This document shows positions 10,752 to 41,064 of a stretch of 41,316 bases of DNA, piece after piece. Made by a program: the position numbers and the translations under genes. Every line of letters starts with the position of its first letter. The stretch's first letter is position 1. The stretch lies in UHGV virus genome UHGV-0262680; one strand, 5' to 3'. The notes under the pieces were generated by a model. It did not search any database, was not told the DNA's origin, and worked only from the letters and a program-made list of their open reading frames with translations. Source of the DNA: a virus.

Positions 10752-11284
10752 ACGGGCGGTGATGTCTTCTCATTGTCGCCGTCCTTATGAATATGATTGC
10801 TGAAAGATTTACCGTTGATGGTGACATCTTCAGTAAATTCACAGGGACCGACGAATTTCATTTGTTTACCGATAATATTCAGCAATTCGTCGGCGGTGAG
10901 ATTTACCGTTGTCCCTGAAACGTCTAATTGTTCCCCTGTTATTTCAATAACGCCGTTTTCCTTCAGGGTGATGTGTGATTTTCCGTCCCGGTGATACAGC
11001 CGGACGTCGCCGGGAGACAGGCCTTTAGGGCGACATCGCTTGTCCTCCACTGCGATGGCAACCAGCCCGTCACGCCGTCCGCCAACGGCCAGCACTATGG
11101 CTTCTGAACCTTCCGGCGGAACGGAAGTAAAACCGTAATTCTGGAAGCGTTCCACGTCGTCATCGGTGGCATCTGCCAGCGTCTGGATTTGCAGGTTCTG
11201 CCGCTCCAGACTGTCAGACACCATGCGGACAATGGCACGGTCAACCATCAGCCGCAGACGGCGGGTAATTGCGCTTAATCCCAT
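10748..11284 (-). CDS. Baseplate spike/assembly protein (Mu gp45 / gpV-like), 178 aa
   Basis: Position and size; start and stop overlap the neighbouring genes. Confidence 0.55.
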   Translation of the reverse strand: MGLSAITRRLRLMVDRAIVRMVSDSLERQNLQIQTLADATDDDVERFQNYGFTSVPPEGSEAIVLAVGGRRDGLVAIAVEDKRCRPKGLSPGDVRLYHRDGKSHITLKENGVIEITGEQLDVSGTTVNLTADELLNIIGKQMKFVGPCEFTEDVTINGKSFSNHIHKDGDNEKTSPPV

Positions 11285-19945: not shown

Positions 19946-20848
19946 TTATGCCGGGGTGGTGATGAACGGACTGACCACGATGTCCACATCCTTGTACCAG
20001 ATGTTGGAATCGCCGCCGTTAACCAGCATGGCGTCAATGATGCGCTTCGCGGCTGCACGGTTTTTCGGCCCCACCACAAGGGTGGTCGGGCGGATGCCCA
20101 GCGGTTCACCGTTGGTAGCCTTCATACCCAGCAGCAGATTGCTGGCCTTCTCGTAGTTCTCCGCTGTCAGTGCCGCACGGGAACCGACGGCGGTCTGCCA
20201 GAAGCCGAAGCCCGCATTGCAGCGACCGTCCACCCCGTAAAGGAACTCGTTATTCTTGAAGGTGTGCTCGCTGTTCAGATCATCCAGGGCTTCAAACTTA
20301 AAGGCGCGTCGCGTCTGCCAGATGATGGGTTTCAGTACCTGAGAATCATCAATCAGGAACCACGGTTCTCCCTGGTCTGATGCCGGGGTGCCGACAACGT
20401 TGCTGCAGGTGCCGTCGCCCAGCGGGTGGTCTTCATCAAAGAAGTTCTGACCGTCAAAACACAGGGTGTTAAACCCGGCACACAGCAGGGGGTAACACAG
20501 CTTGTCCGGGAACTCCGACGTCTGGCGGCCATAGCGTTCAGCGATAATGCTGTACTGACCAATCTGATCGTCTTCAATGTGTTCGCGTTTAACGCGGATC
20601 GAACTTTCCCAGGTTTTGTTCGCAAGGGTGTAACCATAACCGTCCAGCGTTGCCATCTGACGGGCGCTGACCCATTCTTTAATCTCCGGTAAATCCTTCA
20701 TCCAGCCGTAGGTATTGGAGGCGGACGAACTCGGGATTTCAGAGGCGATACGCTGCCACTGTGGGGTGACACCACTCAGACCACGGGTATAAGCGGCGCT
20801 CAGACAGGTGGTCAGCGCGTGAAGGACTTCGGAAGTGACTGCTCCCAT
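19946..20848 (-). CDS. Major head (capsid) protein (Mu T-like), 300 aa
   Basis: About 300 aa directly downstream of the protease/scaffold gene, as in Mu. Confidence 0.7.
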   Translation of the reverse strand: MGAVTSEVLHALTTCLSAAYTRGLSGVTPQWQRIASEIPSSSASNTYGWMKDLPEIKEWVSARQMATLDGYGYTLANKTWESSIRVKREHIEDDQIGQYSIIAERYGRQTSEFPDKLCYPLLCAGFNTLCFDGQNFFDEDHPLGDGTCSNVVGTPASDQGEPWFLIDDSQVLKPIIWQTRRAFKFEALDDLNSEHTFKNNEFLYGVDGRCNAGFGFWQTAVGSRAALTAENYEKASNLLLGMKATNGEPLGIRPTTLVVGPKNRAAAKRIIDAMLVNGGDSNIWYKDVDIVVSPFITTPA

Positions 20849-21810
20849 CAGTTATTCTCCTGTTTTGGTTTAGCGGCGAGGAACTCTTCCCCGGTAATAC
20901 CCATGCTGCGGCACATCGCCAGTTCGGCGTCGGTCAGTGTCTGCACGGGTTTATCCTTGCCCTGGCTGGGCTTGTCGTTGTTCACCAGCGGCTGTGCACC
21001 TCTGGTGTACTCCGCAAACTGTTTGCGGCCTTCTTCCGTACGGCAGGTGGCAAGGAACATGTCACGGTTTGCCGGGGCCACTTTTCCGGCTTCGATGGCC
21101 GCATCCACAAGCGCTTCTGCTTCCTTCTCTTCCAGTTGCTGAAGGCGTTGTTCTGCGGTTTCGGCACGGTTCAGTGCCAGATTGTGGGTTTCCACCGGCA
21201 CAAACTTCGTCAGATCAGGTGTCTGTGCGCGGTTCAGCGCCACCTGTTCGTTCTCCTGAAGTTGTTTAATGGCGGCCACGGTATCGTCCACCGTGGCGGA
21301 TTCAGCCAGCCCAAGCAGGCCGGTGATTTGCACAGGTACTGTCATCGGGTTTTTCTCCGTATTCAGTGCAGGAAAATCCAGGTTAGGTTTGTTGGTCAGC
21401 CCGACGCTGGACAGGCGTGTCACCGCACCGTCCGCGTCAAAGAAAAACGCCGGGCTGTAATAGCGGTAGCGGCGCTCGCTCAGCATCCACCGGGCGGACT
21501 CACTCCAGACAACACGGCCTTCAATGGTGCTGCTGTCCGTCACCCGCAGTTCCTCCACCCAGCCATACGCCGGAGCATCTTCACCCCGCGGGCCTTTAAT
21601 TTCGGTGGCGTGTTCAATGTCCACCGGAATTTTGATGTCGGACGAACGGGCAACCACCTCATGTGGATTGCGGTTAATCCACGTCCGGCCATCGCGCCCG
21701 GTGAACTCACCCGCAGGGACGAGTTCAAGCCATTCCGGCAGTTGAGCGGGTGTCAGCTCATTGATGGGTTCTGGCAGGGAAAAACACAGCGCCAGCAGTT
21801 CCGGTTGCAT
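20848..21810 (-). CDS. Head protease/scaffold protein (Mu I-like), 320 aa
   Basis: First gene after the F-I intergenic region; has a C-terminal charged, coiled-coil-like scaffold region. Confidence 0.65.
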   Translation of the reverse strand: MQPELLALCFSLPEPINELTPAQLPEWLELVPAGEFTGRDGRTWINRNPHEVVARSSDIKIPVDIEHATEIKGPRGEDAPAYGWVEELRVTDSSTIEGRVVWSESARWMLSERRYRYYSPAFFFDADGAVTRLSSVGLTNKPNLDFPALNTEKNPMTVPVQITGLLGLAESATVDDTVAAIKQLQENEQVALNRAQTPDLTKFVPVETHNLALNRAETAEQRLQQLEEKEAEALVDAAIEAGKVAPANRDMFLATCRTEEGRKQFAEYTRGAQPLVNNDKPSQGKDKPVQTLTDAELAMCRSMGITGEEFLAAKPKQENN

Positions 21811-21850
21811 GTCAGTCTCCGTCGTTTGGGGTTACTGACGGTCAGTATGC

Positions 21851-21890
21851 GGAAGGCAGAAAAAAAGCCGGATTTACCGGCTTCACTGAA
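21851..21890 (-). promoter_or_regulatory. Conserved 40-bp dyad-plus-T-run element, copy 1 (late-promoter or terminator candidate), 41 bp upstream of the I ATG
   Basis: Minus strand TTCAGTGAAGCCGGTAAATCCGGCTTTTTTTCTGCCTTCC; nearly identical to 29411-29450. Confidence 0.5.
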
Positions 21891-21905
21891 AACGGGAAGA
21901 ATACC

Positions 21906-21949
21906 CCCTTCAAAACCCCTTCAAAAACGCCACAGCGCCTTCAAAAACG
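21906..21949. repeat. Three direct repeats of CCTTCAAAA(ACG) in the F-I intergenic region
   Basis: CCCTTCAAAA at 21906, CCCTTCAAAAACG at 21917 and GCCTTCAAAAACG at 21937. Confidence 0.6.
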
Positions 21950-22024
21950 TCAGAATGCACATTCACGCCATCAGAATAAAAAACGCGTTTCTGATGCATT
22001 TCAGGGGGATTTACGGCGGGAGGG

Positions 22025-22789
22025 TTATTCACTGTCAAAACGGGCCTGTTTTGTCGCCAGCTGGCGCGCCAGCTCCTGCTCACGGTTTATGCCGGGATTG
22101 TAGTTCCAGCCCGGATCAATCCCTTCCGGCACATCTTCCTCTTCGCCCGTGCGTTTGTTCACCCAGCGGACAGTTCTGATTTCCGGCGCTTCGGTGTGAA
22201 TGGTGCCCTGTGCCGCCAGTTGCGCATATTCACCTCGGCTGACCTGACGGATGGTGCATTTGCAGCCCCAGCCGTTAGGGGCAAAATGCGTCTGCCAGAA
22301 CGGATGATCTACCGGCAGACACAGACGCGCCCATTTCACATGCTCCGCCCGGTGCTCGCGGGATGGCCCCAGCTCGTAAATCAGATACGGCATGGCCCGT
22401 TTTGTCCGCTGAATGCGTTCCCACTGGCCCGCTGCGCGGGCGGTGCGCATGTTGGTATCAAAAATCGTGCGGAGGCGGCGGTCGCTGCCCAGCTGTACGG
22501 TGCGCGTTTCTCCTGTCAGCGGATCATCCATCTCCTGTACGCCCCACCATCCGCGTTTTATCAGCAGCGGTTGCAGCGCCTCCCGGAACTCACTGAACGT
22601 CTGCCCGCTTTGCAGGGCGTCTTCCACAAGGGCTTTCACATCCGACAACAAATCCAGTTGCAGCATTTTTGCCACGGTGAAGCTGTTCCGGTGTTCTTCC
22701 CGCCACACATCCCGGTAATCAAAACCGGGGCGCAGCTTCTTCGCCTTCAGCCACGCCAGCGCCTCTTTCGGGATGAGGGTTTCACGCAT
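22025..22789 (-). CDS. Mu F-like head morphogenesis protein, about 254 aa
   Basis: Immediately downstream of the portal gene; ATG at 22789 with GGGAG upstream (the track start at 22846 is TTG). Confidence 0.65.
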   Translation of the reverse strand: MRETLIPKEALAWLKAKKLRPGFDYRDVWREEHRNSFTVAKMLQLDLLSDVKALVEDALQSGQTFSEFREALQPLLIKRGWWGVQEMDDPLTGETRTVQLGSDRRLRTIFDTNMRTARAAGQWERIQRTKRAMPYLIYELGPSREHRAEHVKWARLCLPVDHPFWQTHFAPNGWGCKCTIRQVSRGEYAQLAAQGTIHTEAPEIRTVRWVNKRTGEEEDVPEGIDPGWNYNPGINREQELARQLATKQARFDSE

Positions 22790-24353
22790 GAGCAGTGTCT
22801 CCCAGTGCTCGCGCCTTAAAGCACACCTCTGCCAGTTGCAGGGCAAAGTCGTCCGCGTTCAGCGTTTCCTGAAGCTCAGGCAGGCGTTTCAGAAAGTCAT
22901 CAAAACTGTCGCATTCCTGCGCCAGTGTCAGCACCGGGTTCGTGAACGCCTCGCCGGTTTTCTGCCAGTCACGCAGGGCATCATCCACCATCTGTGCCAG
23001 TTCGTCGGGGTGTTCCCGGTTCAGGGCGACGCGCTCACGGTTCATCGCCATATCACCTGGCACCCCGGCAGACACAGGATGCAGAACTTCCGCCCCTTCA
23101 TCCGGTTCAGCAAAACCGAACCGGTCCCGCAGCTCCGATTCCTGAACCCGCAGCCCCCGGTCAATCAGCGGCACGACGGCGTCTGTCAGCGCCTTCAGAT
23201 CTTCTGCTTCACTGATACGCAGAACAACACGGGGGTAGTGCGCCTGTGTCCCGTAGTTGGCCTCGATGTAGGGACGTACCAGATATTCGTTCAGCGTGTT
23301 AGCCAGCTGCCGCGCATCCCAGCGCACAATGTCCATGCGCACCTGATTGTGCACGTCCGCCTGTGAACGCGAACTGCCGTTATCCGTGGTCATGGTCTGC
23401 CCCAGCACAGCCTTACTGATTTGCGCATCACACCATTCCGCCATTTCACGGAACAGTGCACCGCCGTTATTCCGGCTGGCGGTTTCCTGCATCTCCAGTT
23501 GCATGGACTGCGGAATGGCACACCCGGCATCCGAGGCAATGGAGGCAATCGCGTCAATCAGCACGCGGATTTGCTCCTCCGTGGCGTTGGGGCCGTATTT
23601 CCCCACCGTGACCGGAATGCCGAATTTTTCCGCAAATGCCCACCAGTCACGTACGGTAAAGGATTTCAGCATGTACATTACCGCCACCAGACGGGCCAGA
23701 CCGTTACGCAGCGGCAGACCGGATTTCAGACGCGGCTGGTGAACAATGAATTTTCCCGGTGTCAGCGGTACGCCATCCACCGGCTCATCGTCAGTCAGCA
23801 GGCGGAACTGGCGCAGCGTGGGCTTTTCGGCTTTCAGAAAACGGGGATCAACCCACTCATAATCACGGGGCACCCAGTGGTTGTTGCGGGTGTTCCAGAG
23901 AATTTCACAGACCGCCACACCTTTTCCCAGCCCGTCGAGCAAATCAAACAACAGTTCGGGAATTTGCGGAGCGTCCATCAGCGCCCGGATGGCGTCCGCC
24001 AGCTGCACGTCGGCATCGTCATCACTGGCGGCAACCACCACCGGTTCGATACCGGCTACCGTCAGCTTGCGGGTGCGCAACACCGAAGCGTAATGCAAAT
24101 CGCGTTCTTCCATCTCTTCGGCAAGGATAAAAAAATCACGTGTGATACCGTCGGCAGCATTGCGCAGAATACCTGCCAGCCTGCCGGGATTCAGCCCGGA
24201 AGCGACACTGATGCCCGGCGAGGCCGAGCGCACACCTGCCTGACGCGGACGGGCCTGTACTTCATCGAGCCTCTCTTTTTTCAGCGTATCTTCCTCACCG
24301 GTTGCCGGGTTCAGCAGACGGCGAACGGCTCCGGCCAGTTGTTTCAGGTTCAC
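22782..24353 (-). CDS. Portal protein (Mu H-like), 523 aa, GTG start
   Basis: Directly downstream of the large terminase gene; GTG at 24353 preceded by GAGGGAGG. Confidence 0.75.
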   Translation of the reverse strand: MNLKQLAGAVRRLLNPATGEEDTLKKERLDEVQARPRQAGVRSASPGISVASGLNPGRLAGILRNAADGITRDFFILAEEMEERDLHYASVLRTRKLTVAGIEPVVVAASDDDADVQLADAIRALMDAPQIPELLFDLLDGLGKGVAVCEILWNTRNNHWVPRDYEWVDPRFLKAEKPTLRQFRLLTDDEPVDGVPLTPGKFIVHQPRLKSGLPLRNGLARLVAVMYMLKSFTVRDWWAFAEKFGIPVTVGKYGPNATEEQIRVLIDAIASIASDAGCAIPQSMQLEMQETASRNNGGALFREMAEWCDAQISKAVLGQTMTTDNGSSRSQADVHNQVRMDIVRWDARQLANTLNEYLVRPYIEANYGTQAHYPRVVLRISEAEDLKALTDAVVPLIDRGLRVQESELRDRFGFAEPDEGAEVLHPVSAGVPGDMAMNRERVALNREHPDELAQMVDDALRDWQKTGEAFTNPVLTLAQECDSFDDFLKRLPELQETLNADDFALQLAEVCFKARALGDTAHA

Positions 24354-25885
24354 AGTAAACCTCCCTCATTTTTCAGGCCGCGTGTCAGTTTCATCTGGCG
24401 GCGCGTGTTGCCTTCTTCCGGTTTCGCCGGGCGGTTCAGGCGGTGCAGCTCGTAACGGTGGCAGTCATCCTTGCTGGCAAGGAAGCCCAGGAAAATGGCC
24501 ACAGCGGCATCGCCGTGACGCTTGCGGCCATCGCTACCTTTAGTACGGGCATCGTCAATGCCGGGAACACCACGCAGTAACTGAATGGCCCCGAGGTCAT
24601 TGATCACGTCTTCATGCTTCGGAAGGATCAGCTCATCATCTTCAAACGCTGCACGGAAACGGGGCATGTTTTCGCGGTAGAACGCCACGGACAGCATCAC
24701 CTGTTCCACCTCATCGCCGTACCGCTCCGCCGCCTGTTCTGCCAGATACTGACCATTCCCCCGTGCATCCATTTTGATACCGTCACGACGGGGCAGACGA
24801 TCGCAAAGCCAGAACAGCACCTGCTCCTGCTGTTTAAACGGCATATTGCCAAGCTCAACCAGGAACGGCACCTCGCGGGTGGTGTCATCGTTCACCGTCA
24901 CAGGGGCCAGTACGGTCAGGTCACCCGAACGCGCAAAGTCTTCCCCCAGACAGTGGCGCAGGTTCTTCGGGAGTTTTTCCAGCTCGGGGCGCACCACCGT
25001 CTCCAGCCATTCCCGGATTTCTGCCCGGCGCTGGCTTTCTGTCAGTGCGTTAAATTCCGGTGTGCCGGTAAAGCGCAACACTTTCCCGGTGCCACGGGCC
25101 GCACGTTCACGCAGTGAGCGAGGGATATACGTGCCGCCGCCGTTTTTCGGGACGCAGTAGTATTCCTCCAGGGCGTCTTCGCGGGTGGCAGTATTTCTCA
25201 GCAGACCTTCTTTCCATTCCGCCTCGGCCTCCGGTGACCACACCATGCCGCGCACCTGACAGATACGCCGGTACAGCCCGTCATTGCAGGCATCATCCAG
25301 CGTGATGGTGTGAATACGGTAATCTTTTTTGCCTGCGCGGCTTTCCTGAATCAGCTGGTTAAACGGGTTGTCCACGCCGTCATGGGTAGAGATAAGGCGA
25401 ACCTTACCGCCCCACGTGGTCAGTGGTGTGACCGCCTTGAGTACCTCATCCAGTTGTTCATGAAACGCCGCCTCGTCGATGGTGACATTCCCCTGCATCC
25501 CGCGAATGTTGCCCGGATTACTGGACAGCGCCTTGACCTTAAATCCGCTGGCGAAGTACACGACGAACGTCAGAATGTCCTTGTCTTCGTCGGTGATCAC
25601 TTCCTCGCGGATTTCTTCTGCTGCCGCATTAAACGCTTTCGCCCACATTGCCACGGCGTCGATAAATTCGCGGGCCATCTCCTTATTCGAACCGATATAA
25701 AAGTGATCGCTCCCGCCGTTTTCCTTCTTCAGTGATGCGGTCAGTGCCGCATCTGCCGCTTCTGCCCAGGTTAAACCGGTACGGCGGGATTTCTCGGCGA
25801 TTTTCAGTTTTGAATCATCCGCAACCCAGCGTTTCTGATACGGCAGCAGAACATCGGATTCACTGAACGTGTTCATCTGTGTCAT
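24350..25885 (-). CDS. Terminase large subunit, 511 aa
   Basis: About 510 aa directly upstream of the portal gene; Walker-B-like VTIDEAAF motif. Confidence 0.7.
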   Translation of the reverse strand: MTQMNTFSESDVLLPYQKRWVADDSKLKIAEKSRRTGLTWAEAADAALTASLKKENGGSDHFYIGSNKEMAREFIDAVAMWAKAFNAAAEEIREEVITDEDKDILTFVVYFASGFKVKALSSNPGNIRGMQGNVTIDEAAFHEQLDEVLKAVTPLTTWGGKVRLISTHDGVDNPFNQLIQESRAGKKDYRIHTITLDDACNDGLYRRICQVRGMVWSPEAEAEWKEGLLRNTATREDALEEYYCVPKNGGGTYIPRSLRERAARGTGKVLRFTGTPEFNALTESQRRAEIREWLETVVRPELEKLPKNLRHCLGEDFARSGDLTVLAPVTVNDDTTREVPFLVELGNMPFKQQEQVLFWLCDRLPRRDGIKMDARGNGQYLAEQAAERYGDEVEQVMLSVAFYRENMPRFRAAFEDDELILPKHEDVINDLGAIQLLRGVPGIDDARTKGSDGRKRHGDAAVAIFLGFLASKDDCHRYELHRLNRPAKPEEGNTRRQMKLTRGLKNEGGLL

Positions 25886-26463
25886 GCGCTAATCCCCAGA
25901 ATGTCCCGTTTGATGGTGTCAGCCGCACCGCCTGACAGACCGCCCGTTCTGACCAGCTCTTCGGTTTTTTCTGCCATCTCCTGCGCAAACGCATCGCGGA
26001 TCGCTTTCTCGCGTTTATGGCTGGTCATGGCGGCTGCTTCCAGACGCTGGGCAACCAGCGCCAGTTGGCCCAGCGCCTTCGGTGCAACGGGCTTGTCGTC
26101 TTCTGCCATCGACATGGACGTTTCAAAGGCCAGCGTTTTTACAAACTCCATCAGCAGCTTGCCGACGTCTGACGTCGGCGCGGAACCCAGCTTTGCCGCC
26201 CAGACCTCGGCCATCTCGCGGGAGGCGCGGATTTTGGCCCCGACTTTTTCCATACGGCTGGCATAGCGGTTTAAGCCCGTCCGGCTTAACTGCATCTCTT
26301 CCGGCAGGTTGTGTTCGTCAATCAGGGTGTTGATGGCTTCGCGGATTTCTTCCTGCGTGTGCCGCTTTTCCCGCAGCATCTGATGTAACTGCTCCCGGAT
26401 GCTGTCCGGGAGTAAATCCACTTTGGAAAGACGGCCACGGGTGGGGCGTTGTTCATTTTCCAT
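25882..26463 (-). CDS. Putative terminase small subunit / DNA-packaging protein, 193 aa
   Basis: Immediately upstream of the large terminase gene. Confidence 0.4.
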   Translation of the reverse strand: MENEQRPTRGRLSKVDLLPDSIREQLHQMLREKRHTQEEIREAINTLIDEHNLPEEMQLSRTGLNRYASRMEKVGAKIRASREMAEVWAAKLGSAPTSDVGKLLMEFVKTLAFETSMSMAEDDKPVAPKALGQLALVAQRLEAAAMTSHKREKAIRDAFAQEMAEKTEELVRTGGLSGGAADTIKRDILGISA

Positions 26464-26740
26464 CTTCAGACCTCTGCGTTTTCAGACCGGCGTATATTTC
26501 TTCACGAACGGACTGAATATCCTTACTTAACAGCTTCCACAGCCGCGCACATGCCGGTGATGATCGCAGGGCGCGTTTCATGGGGGTATCCGGTGCATCC
26601 GGGTTCCAGGGCTTTCCTGTCTGTTTTTCGTATGCACGGACAATGGCGTTTTGCTCAATATCTGCCAGCACAAGGCAGTACGCCAGTTGCCGCACGACGG
26701 CCCGTTCTCCGCGACTTAACGGCTTCAGTTTTCGGGCCAT
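26453..26740 (-). CDS. Hypothetical protein, 95 aa
   Basis: ATG at 26740; in the operon between the lysis and packaging genes. Confidence 0.35.
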   Translation of the reverse strand: MARKLKPLSRGERAVVRQLAYCLVLADIEQNAIVRAYEKQTGKPWNPDAPDTPMKRALRSSPACARLWKLLSKDIQSVREEIYAGLKTQRSEDGK

Positions 26741-26742
26741 GC

Positions 26743-27036
26743 TCAGTCCCTCGCACGGGGTTTTTTAACGCCCGGAACGCCGGACAGGCCGTTTGCCACA
26801 TCCTCGCCGCTGCCGGTGATTTCAGCCACGTAACAGCCGCCCACATCAGACAGACGAACCAGCCCCTGCTCGCGAAGCCATGCAAGCTGAGTGCGCACCA
26901 CATCACGGGATACCTTATGACCGTAAGCCTGAAGGCAGGTCTGCAACACGGATTCATTCGCGCTGTCGCCACAGTCCAGCAGGGAACGCAGTAACACCAG
27001 ACGACGGTCTTCAGTGAGGATCTCTTTCATCGCCAT
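26743..27036 (-). CDS. Hypothetical protein, 97 aa
   Basis: ATG at 27036. Confidence 0.35.
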   Translation of the reverse strand: MAMKEILTEDRRLVLLRSLLDCGDSANESVLQTCLQAYGHKVSRDVVRTQLAWLREQGLVRLSDVGGCYVAEITGSGEDVANGLSGVPGVKKPRARD

Positions 27037-27341
27037 TAATTTTTTTCCTTTAACTCGTTCTCTAATAACAAATCGCTGATGCGGGATACCTGGCGGATGG
27101 ATGGCCCCAGTTCTTTGATTTCTCCCCGCAGATTGCTGATATCCAGTTGCAGGCGGTGGAACTCATCACGGTCAGGTAAATGGTGTACCTGGCTTTCCAT
27201 CACCGACACGCGGGAACGGAGTGAATCAAACTCTTCACGTTTGACGTAGGTTTTCGCCAGTATCAACTGAAGCAGGTTTATTCCTGTCATCAGCAATGCC
27301 CACAGAATGGGCCAGTTGGCTCTGATCATTTCCCAGGACAC
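27036..27341 (-). CDS. Membrane-anchored coiled-coil protein (i-spanin-like), about 101 aa
   Basis: N-terminal hydrophobic segment WPILWALLMTGINLLQLIL followed by a coiled-coil-like region; sits in the lysis region. Confidence 0.4.
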   Translation of the reverse strand: MSWEMIRANWPILWALLMTGINLLQLILAKTYVKREEFDSLRSRVSVMESQVHHLPDRDEFHRLQLDISNLRGEIKELGPSIRQVSRISDLLLENELKEKN

Positions 27342-27553
27342 GTTTTCCTCCTGCGTTCCCGAATATGCTGACAGTCAATACAGGTCACCACATCCGGCAG
27401 CGCCGCAAGGCGTTGTGCCGGAATAACGTTCCCACAGTCATTGCAGCAGCCCCGACTATGGGGCGCTTCTTTTGTCCGCGTCTGCCAGGCGTTAACGACG
27501 CTCTGACGTTCGTTCATAACCACTTCACTGATGCGGTCGATTTCGTCGGTCAT
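27326..27553 (-). CDS. TraR/DksA-type zinc-finger protein, 75 aa
   Basis: CCNDCGNVIPAQRLAALPDVVTCIDC, a C4 zinc finger typical of phage TraR-like proteins. Confidence 0.6.
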   Translation of the reverse strand: MTDEIDRISEVVMNERQSVVNAWQTRTKEAPHSRGCCNDCGNVIPAQRLAALPDVVTCIDCQHIRERRRKTCPGK

Positions 27554-28158
27554 TTCGGCCCCGCAGAGATTTTGTGACGGCTCGATTTGCTGTACCGGGC
27601 AAAGCCGTCCATGGTTCTTACTCCGAGATAGCCCAGCGCCGGGGTAAGCAACATCAGCGTGATATCCCAGTCCGGTGACGGCATATGCAGTGTGATACCT
27701 CTGGCACCGGCAATGGCTCCGGCAATCTGGCCACAGGAGAGCAACAGCACATAGGTCAGACTGCTGTAACAGGAAAGACGGGCCAGCAGCGGGCGCGTCT
27801 GGCGCACATAGCTGTCCGCAGCGTTGTCACCATTGCGGATGGTTTCCTGCTGTTCGTGATGCGCGGCCTGCTCGTCAGCCAGCACCAGCTTCTGCCGTTC
27901 CACCTCAAGCTGTTGTAACTGGACTTTCAGCGTTTCCAGTTGCATCAGTTGCTCCGGTGACAACGCCGTCAGTTGTTGTTCCAGAATGCGTTGCTGTTCG
28001 GTAACCGGCAGGCTTTCCCGGACGCTTTCCACCATACCGGCCACCGAGTCAGCGGCGGCAGATGTGCTACCACCAAACCAGCGCCCGACGGAACGAATCA
28101 GCCCCGGCCCGGCTTTCAGCAGAACAGAGGCGATGCCTGAAAGGGTTAACGGATCCAT
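27550..28158 (-). CDS. Lysis-associated membrane protein with C-terminal hydrophobic segments, 202 aa
   Basis: Coiled-coil middle region and two C-terminal hydrophobic stretches. Confidence 0.4.
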   Translation of the reverse strand: MDPLTLSGIASVLLKAGPGLIRSVGRWFGGSTSAAADSVAGMVESVRESLPVTEQQRILEQQLTALSPEQLMQLETLKVQLQQLEVERQKLVLADEQAAHHEQQETIRNGDNAADSYVRQTRPLLARLSCYSSLTYVLLLSCGQIAGAIAGARGITLHMPSPDWDITLMLLTPALGYLGVRTMDGFARYSKSSRHKISAGPK

Positions 28159-28556
28159 GAATCCCCCTTATGAAAACTGCGCTGATGTTTATAAAGTGCC
28201 GCGCAAAAGATACCGCCCAGCCAGAACGCCAGCTGATAAGGCTCCTTCAGATAAAGAAGGCCGAATGTCAGCATGAAAAGACCAACGGCCCAGACCACCC
28301 ATGACCACACGACAATTCGAAGGGAGGCGGCCCGGAAACGCCTTTTGGGTTGCAGGCGATTAGGTACGTTGCCCAGCGAGAAACTGTGAATCAGGCAGAG
28401 TGTCGCGCCGTATGCCAGCACCATGACCGCAAACGCCCGCCATCCGGCAAAACAGCTCGCCAGAAAAAGTACTGCCGACAGCCCCAGAAACGACCACTGG
28501 TACAACATAAAGCGGGAGTAAATAACGCGAACAAAAAGACTATTCATTCTGTGCAT
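28146..28556 (-). CDS. Multi-pass membrane protein (holin-like candidate), about 136 aa
   Basis: From the ATG at 28556: MHRMNSLFVRVIYSRFMLYQWSFLGLSAVLFLASCF..., with about four hydrophobic segments. Confidence 0.4.
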   Translation of the reverse strand: MHRMNSLFVRVIYSRFMLYQWSFLGLSAVLFLASCFAGWRAFAVMVLAYGATLCLIHSFSLGNVPNRLQPKRRFRAASLRIVVWSWVVWAVGLFMLTFGLLYLKEPYQLAFWLGGIFCAALYKHQRSFHKGDSWIR

Positions 28557-28767
28557 TGAGTTTTTCCTTGTACTTCTGGCACTGCCAGAAAATGTCCCGT
28601 GTATCCACGGAGTTCCAGCCACGCATGTAGTAGCTGGCGTGTGTACCGTCATGACCGGTATAGTCCACCGGCTCTGGCGGCGGACCTCCGTCCATACGAT
28701 GTAAAACCTCCTGACGCAGGCGGTCACGCCGCCCGGCTCTTAGCGAGGCATCCCAGCCTTTACCCAT
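28540..28767 (-). CDS. Hypothetical protein, 75 aa
   Basis: ATG at 28767, just after the lysin stop. Confidence 0.3.
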   Translation of the reverse strand: MGKGWDASLRAGRRDRLRQEVLHRMDGGPPPEPVDYTGHDGTHASYYMRGWNSVDTRDIFWQCQKYKEKLNAQNE

Positions 28768-28768
28768 A

Positions 28769-29365
28769 TCACCCCCGCGTGGCGGACATGATGCCTAAAG
28801 GGGTATCGATGATTTCCAGACAGGCGTCGGTCAGCTTTTCCATGCGGTTAAACCAGCCGTTCAGGTATTTACCCTGGGCGGGTTTTGACTTGATGATGTC
28901 GGCATAAAAGCGGGAACGACGGACAATGCAGCGGGCCAGCAACCAGTCCGGGGTGGACAGACTCACGGCCTTACGGGTACGCGGGCCGATGATGCCGTCA
29001 GCATCCACATCAGCGGCTTCCTGCAAAATCCTGATAGCTTTTTTAACGCCATGCTGAACGGCTGCATCGAACACAAACATCGCCACGCCATCAGGCCACT
29101 GGTCACATCCGGCAGGCAGCCAGTAATCGCGCCAGTAAATCTGCGCGACATGTTCGCGGGTTAAATCCCTGATGCGGGTATCCGGTTTACCGTCGCCGCT
29201 GACATCGGTTTTGCCGTCAATCACACCGTCGCGGCGGTCAGAAATGCCGTATTTGGTTTCGCCGCCACGGTCAGTGGGGTCATTGACATAGACGCCTTCG
29301 ATATCGGGACGCAGAATAAAATTCAGCGCATGTTCAAAGGCCGGGGAGAATTTCAGATTTTCCAT
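28769..29365 (-). CDS. Endolysin, GH108-type N-acetylmuramidase with peptidoglycan-binding domain, 198 aa
   Basis: Motifs EGVYVNDPTDRGGETKYGI and DVDADGIIGPRTRKAV, typical of GH108 plus PG-binding phage lysins. Confidence 0.7.
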   Translation of the reverse strand: MENLKFSPAFEHALNFILRPDIEGVYVNDPTDRGGETKYGISDRRDGVIDGKTDVSGDGKPDTRIRDLTREHVAQIYWRDYWLPAGCDQWPDGVAMFVFDAAVQHGVKKAIRILQEAADVDADGIIGPRTRKAVSLSTPDWLLARCIVRRSRFYADIIKSKPAQGKYLNGWFNRMEKLTDACLEIIDTPLGIMSATRG

Positions 29366-29410
29366 AAAAGCACCTGTGAAGCAGAGTTAAACGTGGTCTG
29401 CTTCATAGTG

Positions 29411-29450
29411 CCGGAGGCATAAAAAAAGCCGGATTTACCGGCTTCATTGA
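29411..29450 (-). promoter_or_regulatory. Conserved 40-bp dyad-plus-T-run element, copy 2, 46 bp upstream of the endolysin ATG
   Basis: Minus strand TTCAATGAAGCCGGTAAATCCGGCTTTTTTTATGCCTCCGG; nearly identical to copy 1. Confidence 0.5.
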
Positions 29451-29464
29451 ATTAAAAAAGATGA

Positions 29465-29944
29465 CTACTCATCACCTTTGATGGAGCAATCTATCATCAT
29501 ATTTTTCCCCATAGGGAGAAACTTTGTCTGAATGTGAAAGCCCAGAATCTTATACGTTAGTCCGTAACCTTTAACTTTTGCTGCGGAAGCCACCATGTCA
29601 ATAACTCGTTCCTGCTGTTCTTCAGTTAATTGACCAATTACAGATTCAACAACCCGCGAACATGCAGCAAAGGAGGGCAGAGCGCCTACAGGATTATCAT
29701 CAAAATCTTTTACAGTCGTCGTTGAACTAACGACCTTATTATTAATCATAAACAATCCAAACTTGCTGTGAGCAGTTTCGGTTCCACCGTTCTTAATTGA
29801 ATCGCCCCCTTTAAGAGGCTTCCAGCTATTTAGTGCAATGAGGTCTTTTTCGGCCAGGCGTTTTTTGATTACCTCTTCAGAGGGCAGCTTTGCCGCATTA
29901 GCGCAAAATACGCTCAGTAAAAACATAAGAGGAAAGTATTTCAT
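29465..29944 (-). CDS. Secreted (signal-peptide) protein of unknown function, 159 aa; lower-GC accessory gene coupled to mor
   Basis: N-terminus MKYFPLMFLLSVFCANA is signal-peptide-like. Its ATG overlaps the mor stop in an ATGA junction at 29941-29944, and it is visibly AT-richer than the flanking genes. Confidence 0.55.
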   Translation of the reverse strand: MKYFPLMFLLSVFCANAAKLPSEEVIKKRLAEKDLIALNSWKPLKGGDSIKNGGTETAHSKFGLFMINNKVVSSTTTVKDFDDNPVGALPSFAACSRVVESVIGQLTEEQQERVIDMVASAAKVKGYGLTYKILGFHIQTKFLPMGKNMMIDCSIKGDE

Positions 29945-30351
29945 GGCTCATCCTTAAATAGTTGCATTTGATATTTTCCACGCTCCAGCCTTCGCATTCT
30001 TTTGATGGCCTGATATACCGTTTTGTAGGTCACTTTGTAACGCTGCACCAACTCTGCTACGTTTTTTCCATCAAAATCACGCCAGATGCGCATGTCTCTG
30101 ATCATATTTTCCAGTATTTTCCCTTTCGGAACATATACCTGAATCCCTCCGATATGATTGCAAATTGCCACTACCAGCTCAAGAGAGTGGGCAGGGTTAA
30201 CACCAAGCCTTATCAGTTCCTGTCGCAGCAGAGCATTCAGCTCTGAAAGTAGCGCCGGGTAAACATATTTTTCCTGATAATCGTGAAGATATTCCAGAAC
30301 ACTGTCGTCCCGGAAGTCTTCGAATAAATCCTGCTCTTTCATCTGTTTCAT
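29941..30351 (-). CDS. mor: Mor middle-operon transcription activator, 136 aa
   Basis: ...ALLSELNALLRQELIRLGVNPAHSLELVVAICNHIGGIQVYVP...IRDMRIWRDFDGKNVAELVQRYKVTYKTVYQAIKRMRRL aligns along its length with Mu Mor as recalled. Confidence 0.8.
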   Translation of the reverse strand: MKQMKEQDLFEDFRDDSVLEYLHDYQEKYVYPALLSELNALLRQELIRLGVNPAHSLELVVAICNHIGGIQVYVPKGKILENMIRDMRIWRDFDGKNVAELVQRYKVTYKTVYQAIKRMRRLERGKYQMQLFKDEP

Positions 30352-37599: not shown

Positions 37600-37938
37600 C
37601 AACCAGGTAATGGCTAAGACATAAACTTCACTCCAGGTTATTACATATGTAAGATACCCAAACAGTGATGATTGTTTTTGACACACAGCACTTGCTGAAA
37701 GCCTGGTTGTTACCGTTTTTGAAGCATTTTTGAAGCTGTACTTGAAATGATGCGTGAAGTAATTGCTTTTCGTGTCTTTAATGAATCAAAAGCTGTTTCC
37801 AACAATCTTTCGCGTTTCAAGATGTAACGGCTAAAATCTATCCTACAGGCTTGCAAGCCCCACTAAATCTAATCCCGCCAAATCCCGAATAATCCAATGT
37901 CCTCCCGGTTTTTTTCGTACTTCACGTGAATCAATACA
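37600..37938. promoter_or_regulatory. Mu left end (attL) with transposase-binding sites
   Basis: Terminal sequence rc TGTATTGATTCACGTGAAGTACGAAAAAAACCGGGAGGACATTGG..., with further TGAAGC/TTTCG-type repeats inward. Confidence 0.65.
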
Positions 37939-38377
37939 GGAATTCGATTAGTTCTTCGCGTGTAGCACTGTAAAAAGTCACGTCATCCACGCCTTTGAAG
38001 TATTTCTTGATGGTTCCTACACGCTTAAGGCCAATCATTGCGCAGTACATCTGCCCGTGGCGGAATTTGCGTGCAGCGAACGATGTGACGCACTGAACGG
38101 TGGTGTTAGTCAGAATGTATCGCCAGAACGCCAGACCGATTTCCTTGCTGAATCCACGAACCTCTGGCAGGTACATGGCGTGGCAATCGAATGTCAGCGG
38201 CTGAATCTCCTGATAGTAAACAATGCCGCCGAACTGCCCGTGCACGCTCACCTCAAAGTAACGGCATTCAGGTTTGTAGTCGTATCCATCGCCGTTGTTG
38301 CTCCCGGCGATAATGTCAGGGTGATTTCCGACTGCTTCTATCAGGTCGATGTTTCGCGTTGGTTTGAATGTAATCAT
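37931..38377 (-). CDS. P22 gene-14-like protein, C-terminus altered by the Mu insertion
   Basis: The ORF reads from host DNA into the Mu left end, ending ...ELIEFLY. Joining the flanks across one GGAAT copy restores ...ELIEFLNHGR-stop. Confidence 0.55.
   Translation of the reverse strand: MITFKPTRNIDLIEAVGNHPDIIAGSNNGDGYDYKPECRYFEVSVHGQFGGIVYYQEIQPLTFDCHAMYLPEVRGFSKEIGLAFWRYILTNTTVQCVTSFAARKFRHGQMYCAMIGLKRVGTIKKYFKGVDDVTFYSATREELIEFLY
37939..37943. repeat. 5-bp target-site duplication GGAAT (right copy)
   Basis: Identical to 4246-4250. Confidence 0.85.
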
Positions 38378-39078
38378 CAGTCAATCAGCCCATGTAATCT
38401 AAGTGCCGTTTCAAGCGCCAGAATACGCTGCCGCGCCTGCTGCAAACCTGTAGCGAGAGCTGCGACTTCGGATTGTGTGTACGTAGTGCCGACAGTGTAT
38501 GACTGGTTAGCGTTGAATGAGCCAAGAAGTGGCGTACCTGTGGCTGCAGTCCATCCGGTATTTCTTGCTCCAACAACCTGAATTCCATCAACTGAATATG
38601 ATGTTTTTACATCCAGCGGTGACTCAAGAGACTGCAATTCGGTTACGGTTTTCGATACGTAATCACTCTTAATGCCAGAGACATCGTTTTCTACGTCATC
38701 CAGTCTTTGGTCAACAGTGACCAGATGCGCCTGAATATCGATAACCTCATCCAGCAAGTAATCAACATCGCTACGCAGTACGACTATCTTCCCTTCGGCA
38801 GTTGTTAACCTGACCTCAAGTAGATTTATCGCTTTTGTGTTTGCGGTGATTCTTGCGTCGTGATCAGCCAGTTCGACGTCCTGTTCATCGTTTTTCACCT
38901 GAGCATCGTAAGCGCCCTGACCAGCCTGATTTGCCTTCCCGGCAATTGCGCCGACATCAGCCCCCTGATTAATGACATACAGCAGGTAAGACTGGCTGAA
39001 TATATTGCGTGGAAGGATTGATGTATCGAGCCGCGTCGCCTGCACAATAACAGGGGTGTTGAGATTCGAATCAGCCAT
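38377..39078 (-). CDS. P22 gp26-like tail needle protein, 233 aa
   Basis: [77 protein letters not shown]... closely resembles the P22 tail needle ([27 protein letters not shown]...) as recalled; 233 aa. Confidence 0.8.
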
Positions 39079-40496: not shown

Positions 40497-41028
40497 TGGA
40501 ATCAACCTTTATATGAACCCAGTTAGCATCACGCTTTAGCCTACTTGCCCAGGTCTTAGATATCCCGTACTTAGCCGCAATTACTGACAAGCTTTCTTTT
40601 GATGACTTGATTGCAAGAACATCGTCATCACTCAACTTGTGTTTTGGGTGCTTGGTTCCGAAAAACTTGATTGGTTTCTTTAATCCGGTGGCGTATGCAT
40701 GTTTGATGTTTTCGCTTTGAGTGCACCACTCAAGATTATTGACGTTATTATTGAGTGGATTGCCATCAATATGATTTACCTGAGGCTTGTTTTCAGGATT
40801 TGGCAGGAATGTCATTGCAACGATTCGATGGGCAAAAGTCCATTTTGCTCCGATATTATAAAGCACCCTTCCCTGATTGATTTTAGGCTTTAACCAGCGC
40901 CCCTTTCTGAGTTGCGTGCTGCCATGCGCAGCCTTAACAACACGTGAGTGAGAATATACCCTGCCATCTTCTGTTACGGCATAAACACCTTCAAATCCAG
41001 GTATATCTTTAGCATTCTCAGAAAGCAT
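40444..41028 (-). CDS. HNH homing endonuclease, 194 aa
   Basis: HNH motif HIDGNPLNNNVNNLEW and a C-terminal helix-turn-helix-like DNA-binding segment; strong AAGGAG ribosome-binding site. Confidence 0.75.
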   Translation of the reverse strand: MLSENAKDIPGFEGVYAVTEDGRVYSHSRVVKAAHGSTQLRKGRWLKPKINQGRVLYNIGAKWTFAHRIVAMTFLPNPENKPQVNHIDGNPLNNNVNNLEWCTQSENIKHAYATGLKKPIKFFGTKHPKHKLSDDDVLAIKSSKESLSVIAAKYGISKTWASRLKRDANWVHIKVDSNGNTTTTTNEGIGEKCG

Positions 41029-41064
41029 ATCTACTCCTTAAAGTTTCGATTTTTCATGTACTTA

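What the first reader, a model, noticed from the sequence alone, without database searches (positions are those of the whole stretch)
21851..29450. Two near-identical 40-bp dyad-plus-T-run elements placed 40-50 bp upstream of the lysin and I genes
The minus-strand sequences TTCA(A/G)TGAAGCCGGTAAATCCGGCTTTTTTT(A/C)TGCC at 29411-29450 and 21851-21890 share a 7-bp stem hairpin and a 7-T run, each followed by a weak -10-like hexamer (TATGAA, CATACT) and then the first gene of a late block. They are either intrinsic terminators that insulate operons or dyad binding sites for a Mor/C-type activator at promoters lacking a -35 box; both readings fit Mu late promoter architecture.
Basis: partly seen in the sequence, partly recalled or inferred. 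Interest (0 to 1): 0.55.

Follow-up and report, generated by a model that had tools for sequence, protein, structure and literature searches.

The report
Fused terminator and Mor-dependent late promoter
The two near-identical 40-bp elements are copies of phage Mu's well-studied "middle promoter" (a binding site for the activator Mor overlapping a transcription terminator hairpin), used here in an E. coli Mu-like prophage to switch on the lysis and head genes directly; this is an ordinary, already understood kind of switch in a new place.

Summary
A 43-nt direct repeat (91% identical, exact 26-mer core) lies on the minus strand upstream of the endolysin and protease I genes. The elements are near-copies of the Mu middle promoter Pm, not of Mu's C-dependent late promoters. 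The 16-bp Mor box (AGTAA-AGCCGG-TTAAT in Mu; AATGA/AGTGA-AGCCGG-TAAAT here) is offset from the hairpin's own axis. It is followed by CCGGC, a T-tract and, 22 nt after the box, a -10 hexamer (CACTAT, CATACT), as in Pm. The window encodes one Mor/C-family protein, 59% identical to Mu Mor. In gene-anchored relatives the box-to-hexamer geometry is kept at 48/54 lys and 47/60 I junctions. The hairpin plus T-run is kept at 47/54 lys junctions but only 15/60 I junctions. Distant relatives carry a separate terminator followed by a Mor-type box. The bare hairpin also occurs as an ordinary terminator in unrelated bacteria. Best reading: an intrinsic terminator fused to a Mor-dependent promoter, giving a two-tier cascade. 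The promoter DNA from -22 to -1 is also complementary to the lysin Shine-Dalgarno/AUG region, which suggests that read-through RNA is not translated, as for T4 gene e. This is a new member of a known kind, of modest interest.

The parts
29409..29451 (-). Composite element 1 (lys junction): the 43-nt repeat unit containing the Mor box, hairpin, T-run and spacer
29433..29448 (-). Mor box 1, AATGA-AGCCGG-TAAAT (equivalent to -51..-36 of Mu Pm; 13/16 identical to the Mu box AGTAAAGCCGGTTAAT)
29425..29445 (-). Terminator hairpin 1, GAAGCCGG-TAAAT-CCGGCTTT. The 5' arm is the Mor-box spacer and the loop is the downstream half-site
29421..29427 (-). T7 run 1. It is the U-tract of the terminator and the T-tract of the promoter spacer (-30..-24)
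29405..29410 (-). Predicted -10 hexamer CACTAT (-13..-8), 22 nt after the Mor box as in Mu Pm. The predicted +1 is A at 29397 (plus or minus 2 nt), inferred by homology and not mapped
29369..29412 (-). Leader inverted repeat. The 5' arm is 29412-29397 (spacer end, -10 hexamer and discriminator). The 3' arm is 29385-29369 and includes the lysin Shine-Dalgarno GGUG. The full stem can form only in RNA that starts upstream of +1
21848..21890 (-). Composite element 2 (I junction): the 43-nt repeat unit
21872..21887 (-). Mor box 2, AGTGA-AGCCGG-TAAAT (14/16 identical to the Mu Pm box)
21864..21884 (-). Terminator hairpin 2
21860..21866 (-). T7 run 2
21844..21849 (-). Predicted -10 hexamer CATACT (-13..-8). 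The predicted +1 is A at 21836 (inferred)
29941..30351 (-). mor orthologue (136 aa). It is the only Mor/C-family gene in the window: 59% identical to Mu Mor and 32% to Mu C, with recognition helix YQAIKRMRRL
29465..29944 (-). Last gene of the early operon (159 aa, unknown function, phrog_38744). Its stop codon lies 20 nt before hairpin 1
28769..29365 (-). Endolysin (GH108 plus peptidoglycan-binding domain), first gene downstream of element 1
22025..22846 (-). Mu F-like minor head protein, last clear gene upstream of element 2
20848..21810 (-). Mu I-type head protease/scaffold, first gene downstream of element 2
10872..10916 (-). Candidate third Mor-type promoter, without a hairpin: AGGGA-CAACGG-TAAAT, 23 nt, TATTAT. 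It lies inside the gp45 homologue, upstream of the gp46 homologue. Weakly supported

Best explanation
Each element is a bifunctional module in which an intrinsic terminator is fused to a Mor-dependent, Pm-type sigma-70 promoter. On RNA coming from upstream, GAAGCCGG-UAAAU-CCGGCUUU plus U-tract forms a Rho-independent terminator. At the lys junction it ends the early operon; at the I junction it ends the lys-to-F operon. On DNA, the hairpin's 5' flank, 5' arm and loop make up the 16-bp Mor box (A-n-T-n-A / AGCCGG / TAAAT) at -51 to -36. The 3' arm (CCGGC) and T-tract form the G+C-rich/T-tract spacer that replaces a -35 hexamer. A weak -10 hexamer (CACTAT, CATACT) follows 22 nt after the box. 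The phage's single Mor orthologue, made from the early operon, is inferred to bind the box and recruit E. coli RNA polymerase holoenzyme as Mu Mor does at Pm, starting transcripts at about 29397 (lysin) and 21836 (I). This phage would therefore run a two-tier cascade (early, then Mor-dependent late) in place of Mu's three tiers (Mor, then C, then late). The sequence anatomy, the homology to Mu Pm, the Mor orthologue and the comparative conservation are shown. Mor binding, the transcription start sites and termination in vivo are inferred. A likely third layer, also inferred, is that promoter DNA from -22 to -1 is complementary to the leader up to the Shine-Dalgarno/AUG. Any transcript that reads through the terminator would then fold into a hairpin masking the lysin ribosome-binding site, while Mor-initiated RNA lacks the masking arm.
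For: (1) Mu Pm (AF083977 9163-9233) reads CAGTAAAGCCGGTTAATCCGGCTTTTTTTTACGTCCTCAATATCCT. The published Mor dyad at -51..-36, two 5-bp inverted repeats around a G/C-rich hexamer (PMC4287176; PMC4390567), maps onto AGTAA-AGCCGG-TTAAT. I checked the numbering against the published bases -57G and -54A. The window boxes match the Mu box at 13/16 and 14/16 positions and share the CCGGC, the T-tract and the 22-nt distance to the hexamer. (2) The Mu record itself annotates a predicted terminator at 9179-9200 inside Pm. It also annotates predicted terminators just before Plys and PI. (3) The window has a single Mor/C gene, 59% identical to Mu Mor and 32% to Mu C, and tblastn finds no second copy. (4) No sigma-70 -35/-10 pair is detected at either site. 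(5) In a census anchored only on gene starts, the box-to-hexamer geometry is present at 48/54 unique lys junctions and 47/60 unique I junctions, against 17/2000 random windows. (6) The hairpin loop T(A/T)AAT is the most conserved block (1.80 bits), while the far flanks carry about 0.1 bit (a motif-anchored set). A loop that is more conserved than the stem is unexpected for a plain terminator. (7) At I junctions, relatives lose the 3' arm and T-run but keep the box (L016, L018, L022, L015, L051 and others). Hairpin plus T-run is found at only 15/60 I junctions against 47/54 lys junctions. (8) Distant relatives (Mor about 43% identical) have a separate terminator, GCCCCACACTGTGGGGC plus T7, followed by a Mor-type box and a -10. 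Both functions are therefore needed at that junction. (9) On the terminator side: 8-bp stem, folding energy -12.6 kcal/mol, T7, and 20 nt after a stop codon. The same 22-mer serves as an ordinary terminator in 66 of 80 species-genome hits that have no Mu-like context. (10) The Mor helix residue (K or R) co-varies with the loop base: K/TAAAT 30, R/TTAAT 15, K/TTAAT 8, R/TAAAT 0, and Mu itself is R/TTAAT. (11) On leader masking: in 40/40 unique lys leaders the -22..-1 segment pairs with the SD/AUG window. Median folding energy is -21.0 kcal/mol against -10.9 for shuffled arms. There are 21 distinct -7..-1 heptamers, each matched by its own complement.
Against: Nothing here is experimental for this phage. 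The transcription start, Mor binding and termination are all inferred from homology with Mu Pm. The -10 hexamers are weak (3-4 of 6 matches). I could not read the primary Mu papers that map the early transcript's 3' end, so termination at the Pm hairpin in Mu rests on a TransTermHP annotation and on my memory. The relatives are not phylogenetically independent, and the information-content analysis used motif-anchored sites. The K/R versus A/T association could come from physical linkage, because mor lies only 0.5 kb from the lys site. At the I junction the stem shows compensatory changes even where no T-run follows. The hairpin symmetry may therefore have a role that neither 'terminator' nor 'Mor box' explains. 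In the window's own I leader the masking structure is weak (-12.7 kcal/mol against -10.3 for controls).
Confidence: 0.72

Rival explanations
1. The elements are plain intrinsic terminators that insulate operons. The late genes would be expressed from promoters elsewhere or by antitermination, and the sequence identity would be incidental.
For: The elements have canonical terminator anatomy. The same hairpin recurs as a generic terminator in unrelated phyla.
Against: The loop and 5' flank are more conserved than a terminator requires. The box persists where the 3' arm and T-run are lost. The sequence and spacing match the mapped Mor site of Mu Pm. Only 49-55 nt separate the T-run from the start codon, which leaves no room for an independent promoter. 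No antiterminator gene was seen among the ORFs scanned.
Confidence: 0.05
2. The elements are Mor-dependent promoters only. The hairpin and T-tract would exist for promoter reasons (a deformable G+C segment next to a rigid T-tract) and would not terminate upstream transcription to any useful extent.
For: Bases immediately downstream of the Mor and C dyads are critical for activation (PMC2582627). A Mu paper on distortion in the Pm spacer exists; its title was verified, and my account of its content is from memory. The T-run is dispensable at most I junctions.
Against: 47/54 lys junctions keep a perfect hairpin plus T-run exactly where the early operon ends. Distant relatives that lack the fused form carry a separate terminator at the same junction. 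The stem has compensatory changes. The leader anti-SD arm only makes sense if some RNA arrives from upstream.
Confidence: 0.13
3. The real activator site is the 27-bp pseudo-palindrome on the hairpin axis (AnTnA-AGCCGG-TWAAT-CCGGCT-TTTTT), bound by a Mor tetramer. The dyad symmetry would then be selected at the DNA level, and the terminator likeness would be a by-product.
For: Cryo-EM shows that Mor and C bind as centrosymmetric tetramers spanning nearly three helical turns (bioRxiv 10.1101/2025.05.02.651988). Stem pairs co-vary at I junctions without a T-run. The stem extends symmetrically in some lineages (GGAGGGAAAG...CTTTCCCTCC).
Against: The published footprint of Mor alone ends at -36. 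One inner stem pair is broken in 22/41 I sites. Distant relatives have a box with no symmetry around the loop.
Confidence: 0.07
4. The conservation reflects recombination or gene conversion at module boundaries, or a small mobile repeat, and not function.
For: The upstream flank of the lys element is mosaic among close relatives. The two copies within a genome tend to share the same loop variant (42/48).
Against: There are only two copies per genome, always at the same two junctions and in the same orientation. The conserved block coincides with an experimentally defined promoter in Mu. The fixed distance to a -10 hexamer is kept even where sequences differ.
Confidence: 0.03

Closest known systems
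Bacteriophage Mu middle promoter Pm (Mor-dependent), with its overlapping predicted terminator after mor
   Same: The 16-bp Mor box is nearly the same (13-14 of 16 positions). The CCGGC plus T-tract, the 22-nt distance to a weak -10 hexamer and the absence of a -35 hexamer all match. The hairpin/T-run overlaps the box in the same way, lies downstream of the mor gene, and the cognate activator is orthologous (59%).
   Different: In Mu, Pm occurs once, sits immediately after mor and drives the middle operon that encodes C. Here the element occurs twice and drives the lysis/packaging and head operons directly, and there is no C gene. Mu has TTAAT, T8 and TATCCT; the window has TAAAT, T7 and CACTAT/CATACT. 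One extra gene (159 aa) lies between mor and element 1.
Mu late promoters Plys and PI (C-dependent)
   Same: The genomic positions are the same (upstream of the endolysin and of protease I). The logic is the same: an activator-dependent promoter without a -35 hexamer, preceded by a predicted terminator.
   Different: The Mu sites carry C boxes (TTAT-N-ATAA, PMC12867686) and need C, and their terminators are separate from the activator site. The window sites carry Mor boxes and have no TTAT...ATAA, and the terminator is fused to the box.
T4 gene e (lysozyme), soc and 49: promoter-dependent unmasking of the ribosome-binding site
   Same: Long transcripts from upstream are predicted to sequester the SD/AUG in a helix. 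The late promoter lies within the 5' arm, so late transcripts lack it (PMC3014915). In both cases a lysis enzyme is the gated gene.
   Different: In T4 the effect has been demonstrated experimentally, and the late promoters use gp55/gp33. Here the effect is only predicted. The 5' arm is the spacer, -10 hexamer and discriminator of a Mor-dependent sigma-70 promoter, and a terminator precedes it.
Generic Rho-independent terminators of the form AAGCCGG-TWAAT-CCGGCTT plus T-run
   Same: The hairpin and U-tract are identical. 66 of 80 species-genome hits are ordinary gene-end terminators in Bacteroidota, Ignavibacteria, Pantoea chromosomes and others.
   Different: Those copies have an A-tract 5' flank, no conserved AnTnA half-site, no -10 hexamer at a fixed distance and no Mu-like genes nearby.

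Membership tests
Mu Pm-type (Mor-dependent) promoter | A 16-bp element of two imperfect 5-bp inverted repeats separated by a G/C-rich hexanucleotide | tested here: met
   AATGA-AGCCGG-TAAAT and AGTGA-AGCCGG-TAAAT compare with Mu AGTAA-AGCCGG-TTAAT.
Mu Pm-type (Mor-dependent) promoter | The element is centred near -43.5: a -10 hexamer lies 22 nt downstream of the box, and there is no -35 hexamer | tested here: met
   There are 22 nt between the box and CACTAT/CATACT, as for TATCCT in Mu. The scan finds no sigma-70 promoter at either site. The position relative to +1 is inferred, because the start is not mapped.
Mu Pm-type (Mor-dependent) promoter | A G+C-rich segment followed by a T-tract immediately downstream of the box | tested here: met
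   CCGGC plus T7 is present in both copies, and CCGGC plus T8 in Mu. The functional importance of these bases is taken from PMC2582627.
Mu Pm-type (Mor-dependent) promoter | A cognate Mor activator is encoded by the phage's early operon | tested here: met
   Pfam Mor hit at 7e-30; 59% identical to Mu Mor; located upstream in the same orientation.
Mu Pm-type (Mor-dependent) promoter | Mor binds the element, and transcription from it depends on Mor | not testable with these tools
   This needs EMSA or footprinting, plus 5'-end mapping or reporter assays.
Intrinsic (Rho-independent) terminator | A stable G+C-rich stem-loop immediately followed by a U-tract | tested here: met
   8 pairs, 5 of them G-C, a 5-nt loop, T7, and folding energy -12.6 kcal/mol.
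Intrinsic (Rho-independent) terminator | Located at the end of a transcription unit, co-oriented with it | tested here: met
   Copy 1 lies 20 nt after the stop of the 159-aa ORF. Copy 2 lies in the F-I gap, 25 nt after the stop of a small ORF.
Intrinsic (Rho-independent) terminator | Transcript 3' ends at the U-tract in vivo or in vitro | not testable with these tools
   This needs Term-seq, 3'-RACE or a terminator reporter.
Mu late (C-dependent) promoter | A C box, TTAT-N5-6-ATAA or the related 16-bp dyad | tested here: not met
   Neither element contains such a motif. Compare Mu Plys and the consensus in PMC12867686.
Mu late (C-dependent) promoter | A C orthologue is present | tested here: not met
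   There is only one Mor/C-family gene, and it is 32% identical to C against 59% to Mor.
T4 gene e-type translational gating by choice of promoter | RNA from upstream folds so that the SD/AUG is paired with a 5' arm | tested here: met
   In silico only. Window lys leader: -18.9 kcal/mol, z = -5.1, with SD GGUG paired to the CACU of the -10 hexamer. All 40 unique lys leaders show the pairing, with 29/40 more stable than all 100 shuffles. The window's own I leader is weak.
T4 gene e-type translational gating by choice of promoter | The regulated promoter starts transcription inside or after the 5' arm | tested here: inconclusive
   The +1 predicted by homology with Pm falls at the last base of the 5' arm (29397), but the start has not been mapped.
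Dispersed mobile repeat (REP/MITE-like) | Many copies at non-syntenic sites | tested here: not met
   There are two copies per genome, always at the same two junctions.

The most novel reading that the evidence does not exclude
The element would be one part of a conserved three-layer 'late-gene lock' in Mu-like phages: a terminator, an activator-dependent promoter fused to it, and a promoter-embedded anti-Shine-Dalgarno arm. The DNA of the spacer, -10 hexamer and discriminator (-22..-1) encodes the 5' arm of a hairpin that masks the lysin (and, in many lineages, the protease I) ribosome-binding site. Only RNA started by Mor at +1 would then be translatable, and early read-through RNA would be silent. 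I found no description of this for Mu-like phages in the papers I could search. It would extend the T4 gene e principle to a sigma-70/activator system, and it would explain why the bases after the T-run (A/C-TGCCT...) are conserved.
Probability: 0.5. Interest if true: 0.55.

Novelty: new member of a known kind. Interest (0 to 1): 0.36.

Why it matters
The finding assigns a concrete, testable regulatory function to two unannotated intergenic elements in a Mu-like prophage that is present in about 1% of complete E. coli genomes (53 of 5426). It shows that single-activator Mu-like phages place Pm-type, Mor-dependent promoters directly in front of the lysis and head operons. This suggests that Mu's three-tier cascade is a derived elaboration in which mor was duplicated to give C and new C boxes arose. 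The comparative series provides about 100 natural variants of the Mor box and its spacer, including an apparent match between a recognition-helix residue (K or R) and a box base (A or T). These can guide structure-function work on Mor/C activators. The fused, adjacent and hairpin-less forms show how a terminator and an activator site can come to share the same nucleotides. The predicted anti-SD leader, if real, adds a translational safeguard against premature lysis.

Tried and rejected
(1) A megablast and a blastn search against deposited phages found only one distant, unannotated record (Klebsiella phage Kp4866-3). No annotated close relative was available. (2) An Rfam gathering-threshold scan of the whole window gave no hits. 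(3) The primary Mu papers could not be read. These were PMID 8602357 / PMC145667, PMC38441 and PMC210775. Statements about the early-transcript terminator and about spacer distortion at -32..-34 therefore rest on memory, on secondary citations and on the GenBank annotation. (4) The idea that the exact hairpin is specific to Mu-like phages was rejected: most species-genome hits are unrelated terminators. (5) I searched the window for more copies with relaxed patterns. No further hairpin copies were found. The plus-strand and coding-region hits were treated as chance, except the site at 10916. (6) Synteny of the 10916 candidate with Mu PP was rejected, because PP lies inside gene N and the candidate lies inside the gp45 homologue. 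(7) A Mor box upstream of com/mom was not confirmed. Only GTGTGGTTAAATAT aligns with Mu's C box. (8) The first conservation profile was motif-anchored and therefore biased. I redid it anchored on gene starts. (9) SD accessibility computed from pairing probabilities gave only a moderate effect: median values were 0.37 for read-through RNA, 0.52 for promoter-initiated RNA and 0.50 for controls at lys. The folding-energy and pair-count tests are clearer. (10) Structure prediction and the large protein searches were not used, because they would not bear on a DNA regulatory element.

Full report
**1. Observation**

Both copies exist on the minus strand. The exact 26-mer TGAAGCCGGTAAATCCGGCTTTTTTT lies at 29446..29421 and 21885..21860. 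Allowing up to 3 mismatches gives no other match in the window, and shuffles give none. The repeat finder reports a 43-nt direct repeat at 91% identity, at 21848-21890 and 29409-29451. The hairpin is 8 pairs with a 5-nt loop, followed by T7, and folds at -12.6 kcal/mol as RNA. The register of copy 1 is off by one base, and the lysin -10 hexamer is CACTAT rather than TATGAA.

**2. Context**

The window holds a Mu-like prophage on the minus strand. The gene order around the elements is as follows:

- transposase A and B homologues, further upstream
- a Mor-family gene (29941-30351)
- a 159-aa ORF of unknown function (29465-29944)
- element 1
- a GH108 endolysin (28769-29365)
- terminase, portal and an F homologue
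- a gap of about 140 nt
- element 2
- protease I (20848-21810) and capsid protein T

Further downstream lie N, P, gp45, gp46 and gp47 homologues and a Mom homologue. The prophage is flanked on both sides by P22-type genes, so it has transposed into a P22-like prophage. The mor-lys segment is 100% identical to E. coli NCCP 13717 and occurs in 53 of 5426 complete E. coli genomes. No deposited phage is close to it.

**3. What the element is**

The Mu record annotates the middle promoter Pm at 9163-9233 and, inside it, a TransTermHP terminator at 9179-9200. The Mu sequence reads CAGTAAAGCCGGTTAATCCGGCTTTTTTTTACGTCCTCAATATCCT, nearly the same string as the window elements.

The literature places the Mor dyad at -51..-36 (PMC4287176). 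It describes the dyad as two 5-bp inverted repeats separated by a G/C-rich hexanucleotide, centred at -43.5 (PMC4390567). Taking +1 at Mu position 9224 reproduces the published bases -57G and -54A, and the dyad then reads AGTAA-AGCCGG-TTAAT.

The Mor site therefore consists of the hairpin's 5' flank, 5' arm and loop. Its axis lies 5.5 bp upstream of the hairpin axis. The window boxes are AATGA-AGCCGG-TAAAT (29448-29433) and AGTGA-AGCCGG-TAAAT (21887-21872). Each is followed by CCGGC, T7 and, exactly 22 nt after the box, CACTAT or CATACT. Mu has TATCCT at -13..-8. There is no -35 hexamer.

Mu's C-dependent late promoters use a different box, TTAT-N-ATAA (PMC12867686; Plys sequence), and that box is absent here. 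The window's single Mor/C-family protein is 59% identical to Mu Mor and 32% to Mu C. Its recognition helix is nearly identical to Mor's, and tblastn finds no second family member.

**4. Comparative evidence**

Portal-anchored loci from viral contigs and pattern hits show the element at both junctions in phages whose portal is only 65-72% identical, while the flanks diverge.

| Junction (anchored on gene start) | Box-to-hexamer geometry | Hairpin (at least 5 bp) plus T-run |
|---|---|---|
| lys, unique junctions | 48/54 | 47/54 |
| I, unique junctions | 47/60 | 15/60 |
| random 90-nt windows | 17/2000 | not applicable |

Several I junctions keep a perfect box but have a broken 3' arm and no T-run (L016, L018, L022, L015). 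In distant relatives (Mor about 43% identical) the junction after mor carries a separate terminator, GCCCCACACTGTGGGGC plus T7. About 18 nt later comes a Mor-type box (AATCA-CCAAGG-GTAAT) and a -10. Their PI has AACCA-CCCCCG-TAAAT, then 22 nt, then TATTCT, with no hairpin.

Terminator and promoter are therefore both required after the early operon. They are fused in the window's clade and in Mu Pm, and side by side elsewhere. At the I junction the promoter is the constant feature and the terminator is optional.

The loop T(A/T)AAT is the most conserved block at 1.80 bits, although this comes from a motif-anchored set. That pattern is the reverse of what a plain terminator would show.

The stem does show compensatory changes at I junctions: G-C to A-U and G-C to C-G, with 24 cells changed on both sides against 14.3 +/- 2.5 in shuffles. 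One inner pair is broken in 22 of 41 sites. The hairpin symmetry is thus partly maintained even without a T-run, and I cannot fully explain this.

**5. The hairpin as a terminator**

A scan of one genome per species for AAGCCGGTWAATCCGGCTTTTT found 91 stretches. Of the 80 held, only 14 lie next to mor, lys, F, I or portal homologues, and all 14 are from Enterobacterales. The other 66 are ordinary A-tract/hairpin/T-tract terminators in Bacteroidota, Ignavibacteria, Pantoea chromosomes and others. The hairpin is therefore a generic and effective-looking terminator form. What marks the phage copies is the AnTnA half-site and the -10 at a fixed distance.

**6. Protein-site matching**

The loop variant agrees between the lys and I sites of a genome in 42 of 48 cases. 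It also tracks a residue in the Mor recognition helix, AI(K/R)RMRRL. This residue lies next to the position equivalent to the DNA-contacting R120 of C. The counts are K/TAAAT 30, R/TTAAT 15, K/TTAAT 8 and R/TAAAT 0. Mu itself is R/TTAAT, and both states occur within one cluster of about 85% Mor identity. Linkage and shared ancestry could produce this pattern, so it is only suggestive.

**7. Further copies**

There are no more hairpin copies in the window. A stringent search for the box-to-hexamer geometry finds three sites, against 0.11 expected. The third is AGGGA-CAACGG-TAAAT, then 23 nt, then TATTAT (10916-10872), inside the gp45 homologue. The string GGGAAnnCGGTWAAT is kept in relatives that are 63-69% identical in protein, always with Val as GTA or GTT and Asn as AAT. 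However, the site is coding, the -10 is not consistently kept, and it is not syntenic with Mu PP. Upstream of com/mom only a partial match aligns with Mu's C box.

**8. Leader structure, noticed while aligning**

In every lineage an inverted repeat begins right after the T-run or the -10 hexamer and ends at the SD/AUG.

In the window's lys leader, 29412-29397 pairs with 29385-29369. The structure folds at -18.9 kcal/mol with z = -5.1, and the CACU of the -10 hexamer pairs with the SD GGUG.

Across 40 unique lys leaders, all have at least 6 pairs between -22..-1 and the transcript, and all have SD/AUG bases paired to the upstream segment. Median folding energy is -21.0 kcal/mol against -10.9 for shuffled arms, and 29 of 40 are more stable than all 100 shuffles. 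There are 21 different -7..-1 heptamers, each with a matching complement.

I leaders behave similarly but more weakly, and the window's own I leader is not significant.

The predicted +1 falls at the end of the 5' arm. Mor-initiated RNA would therefore lack the masking arm, as for T4 genes e, soc and 49 (PMC3014915). This rests on an unmapped transcription start.

**9. Verdict**

The elements are Pm-type, Mor-dependent promoters fused to intrinsic terminators. They are a new member of a well-characterised kind. The arrangement implies a two-tier cascade in this E. coli Mu-like prophage. A probable extra translational safeguard in the leader is the most novel part.

Noticed in passing
window 29369-29412 (minus); relatives L001-L080: An inverted repeat has its 5' arm in the promoter spacer, -10 hexamer and discriminator, and its 3' arm over the lysin Shine-Dalgarno/AUG. 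It is conserved by covariation (21 distinct arm variants). Only RNA that starts upstream of +1 could form it, which suggests T4 gene e-like translational gating.
   Followed up: yes
window 10872-10916 (minus): A hairpin-less Mor-type box, AGGGA-CAACGG-TAAAT, then 23 nt, then TATTAT, lies inside the gp45 homologue upstream of the gp46 homologue. The box string is kept in relatives with 63-69% protein identity, always using GTA/GTT and AAT codons. It may be a third late promoter, and it is not syntenic with Mu PP.
   Followed up: partly
window 5104-5338 (minus): The com/mom control region has a cluster of GATC sites (GATCGATACCATCATATCGATCG), like Mu's Dam/OxyR region, then GTGTGGTTAAATAT where Mu has its C box, then com. 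The Mom homologue is at 4366-5103. The match to a Mor box is only partial.
   Followed up: partly
window 1-4226 and 37700-41316: P22-type genes lie on both sides of the Mu-like prophage: gp7, gp20 and a further ORF at the low-coordinate end, and gp10-type packaged-DNA stabilisation genes at the high end (96% identical to E. coli). The transposable prophage has therefore inserted into a P22-like prophage. A sequence that I recall as resembling Mu's right end (TGAAGCGGCGCACGAAAAACGCGAAAACG...) sits at about 4250-4300.
   Followed up: partly
window 21900-21990 (minus): Direct repeats (GCGTTTTTGAAGG twice, then GGTTTTGAAGGGGG) lie just upstream of hairpin 2. Relatives have TGTTTTAAACGGGGTT at the same place. 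This may be the C-terminus of a small ORF (21910-22083, ending ...AFLKGF*) or a regulatory repeat.
   Followed up: no
mor 29941-30351 versus box loops 29433-29437 and 21872-21876; relatives: The Mor recognition-helix residue K or R (AIKRMRRL / AIRRMRRL) tracks the second loop base (TAAAT / TTAAT). R is never found with TAAAT (0 of 15), and Mu fits the pattern. Linkage is not excluded.
   Followed up: partly
L003-L012 and others, upstream flank of the lys-type element: Close relatives (portal 95-99% identical) have at least three unrelated sequences immediately upstream of an identical element. The element therefore marks a mosaic module boundary between the early accessory genes and the late genes.
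   Followed up: no
L052, L054, L055, about +8..+25 of the lys leader: The leader contains ACCGGATTAACCGGT, an inverted copy of the box core CCGGTTAATCCGG.
   Followed up: no
window about 4326-4343 (minus): The terminator-like hairpin after mom, A7-CAGCGG-TTAATG-CCGCTG-TTTCGTTT, also carries a TTAAT loop at the very end of the prophage.
   Followed up: no
L140, L142, L143, L161, L187, L189, L214 (Pantoea/Enterobacter chromosomes): The same hairpin (AAAAGCCGGTTAATCCGGCTTTTTT) sits at a conserved chromosomal locus followed by CCCTCTTTTGCCTTGCCGCGCGCCCC, with no Mu-like genes nearby. It appears to be an unrelated, conserved host terminator.
   Followed up: no
L070, L074, L075, L077, about 5700-5800: In distant relatives the early terminator (GCCCCACACTGTGGGGC plus T7) and the Mor-type box (AATCA-CCAAGG-GTAAT) are adjacent but separate. 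Their lys leader also has an arm (TGACAGCAACC...GGTTTCTGTCA) that covers the SD/AUG.
   Followed up: yes
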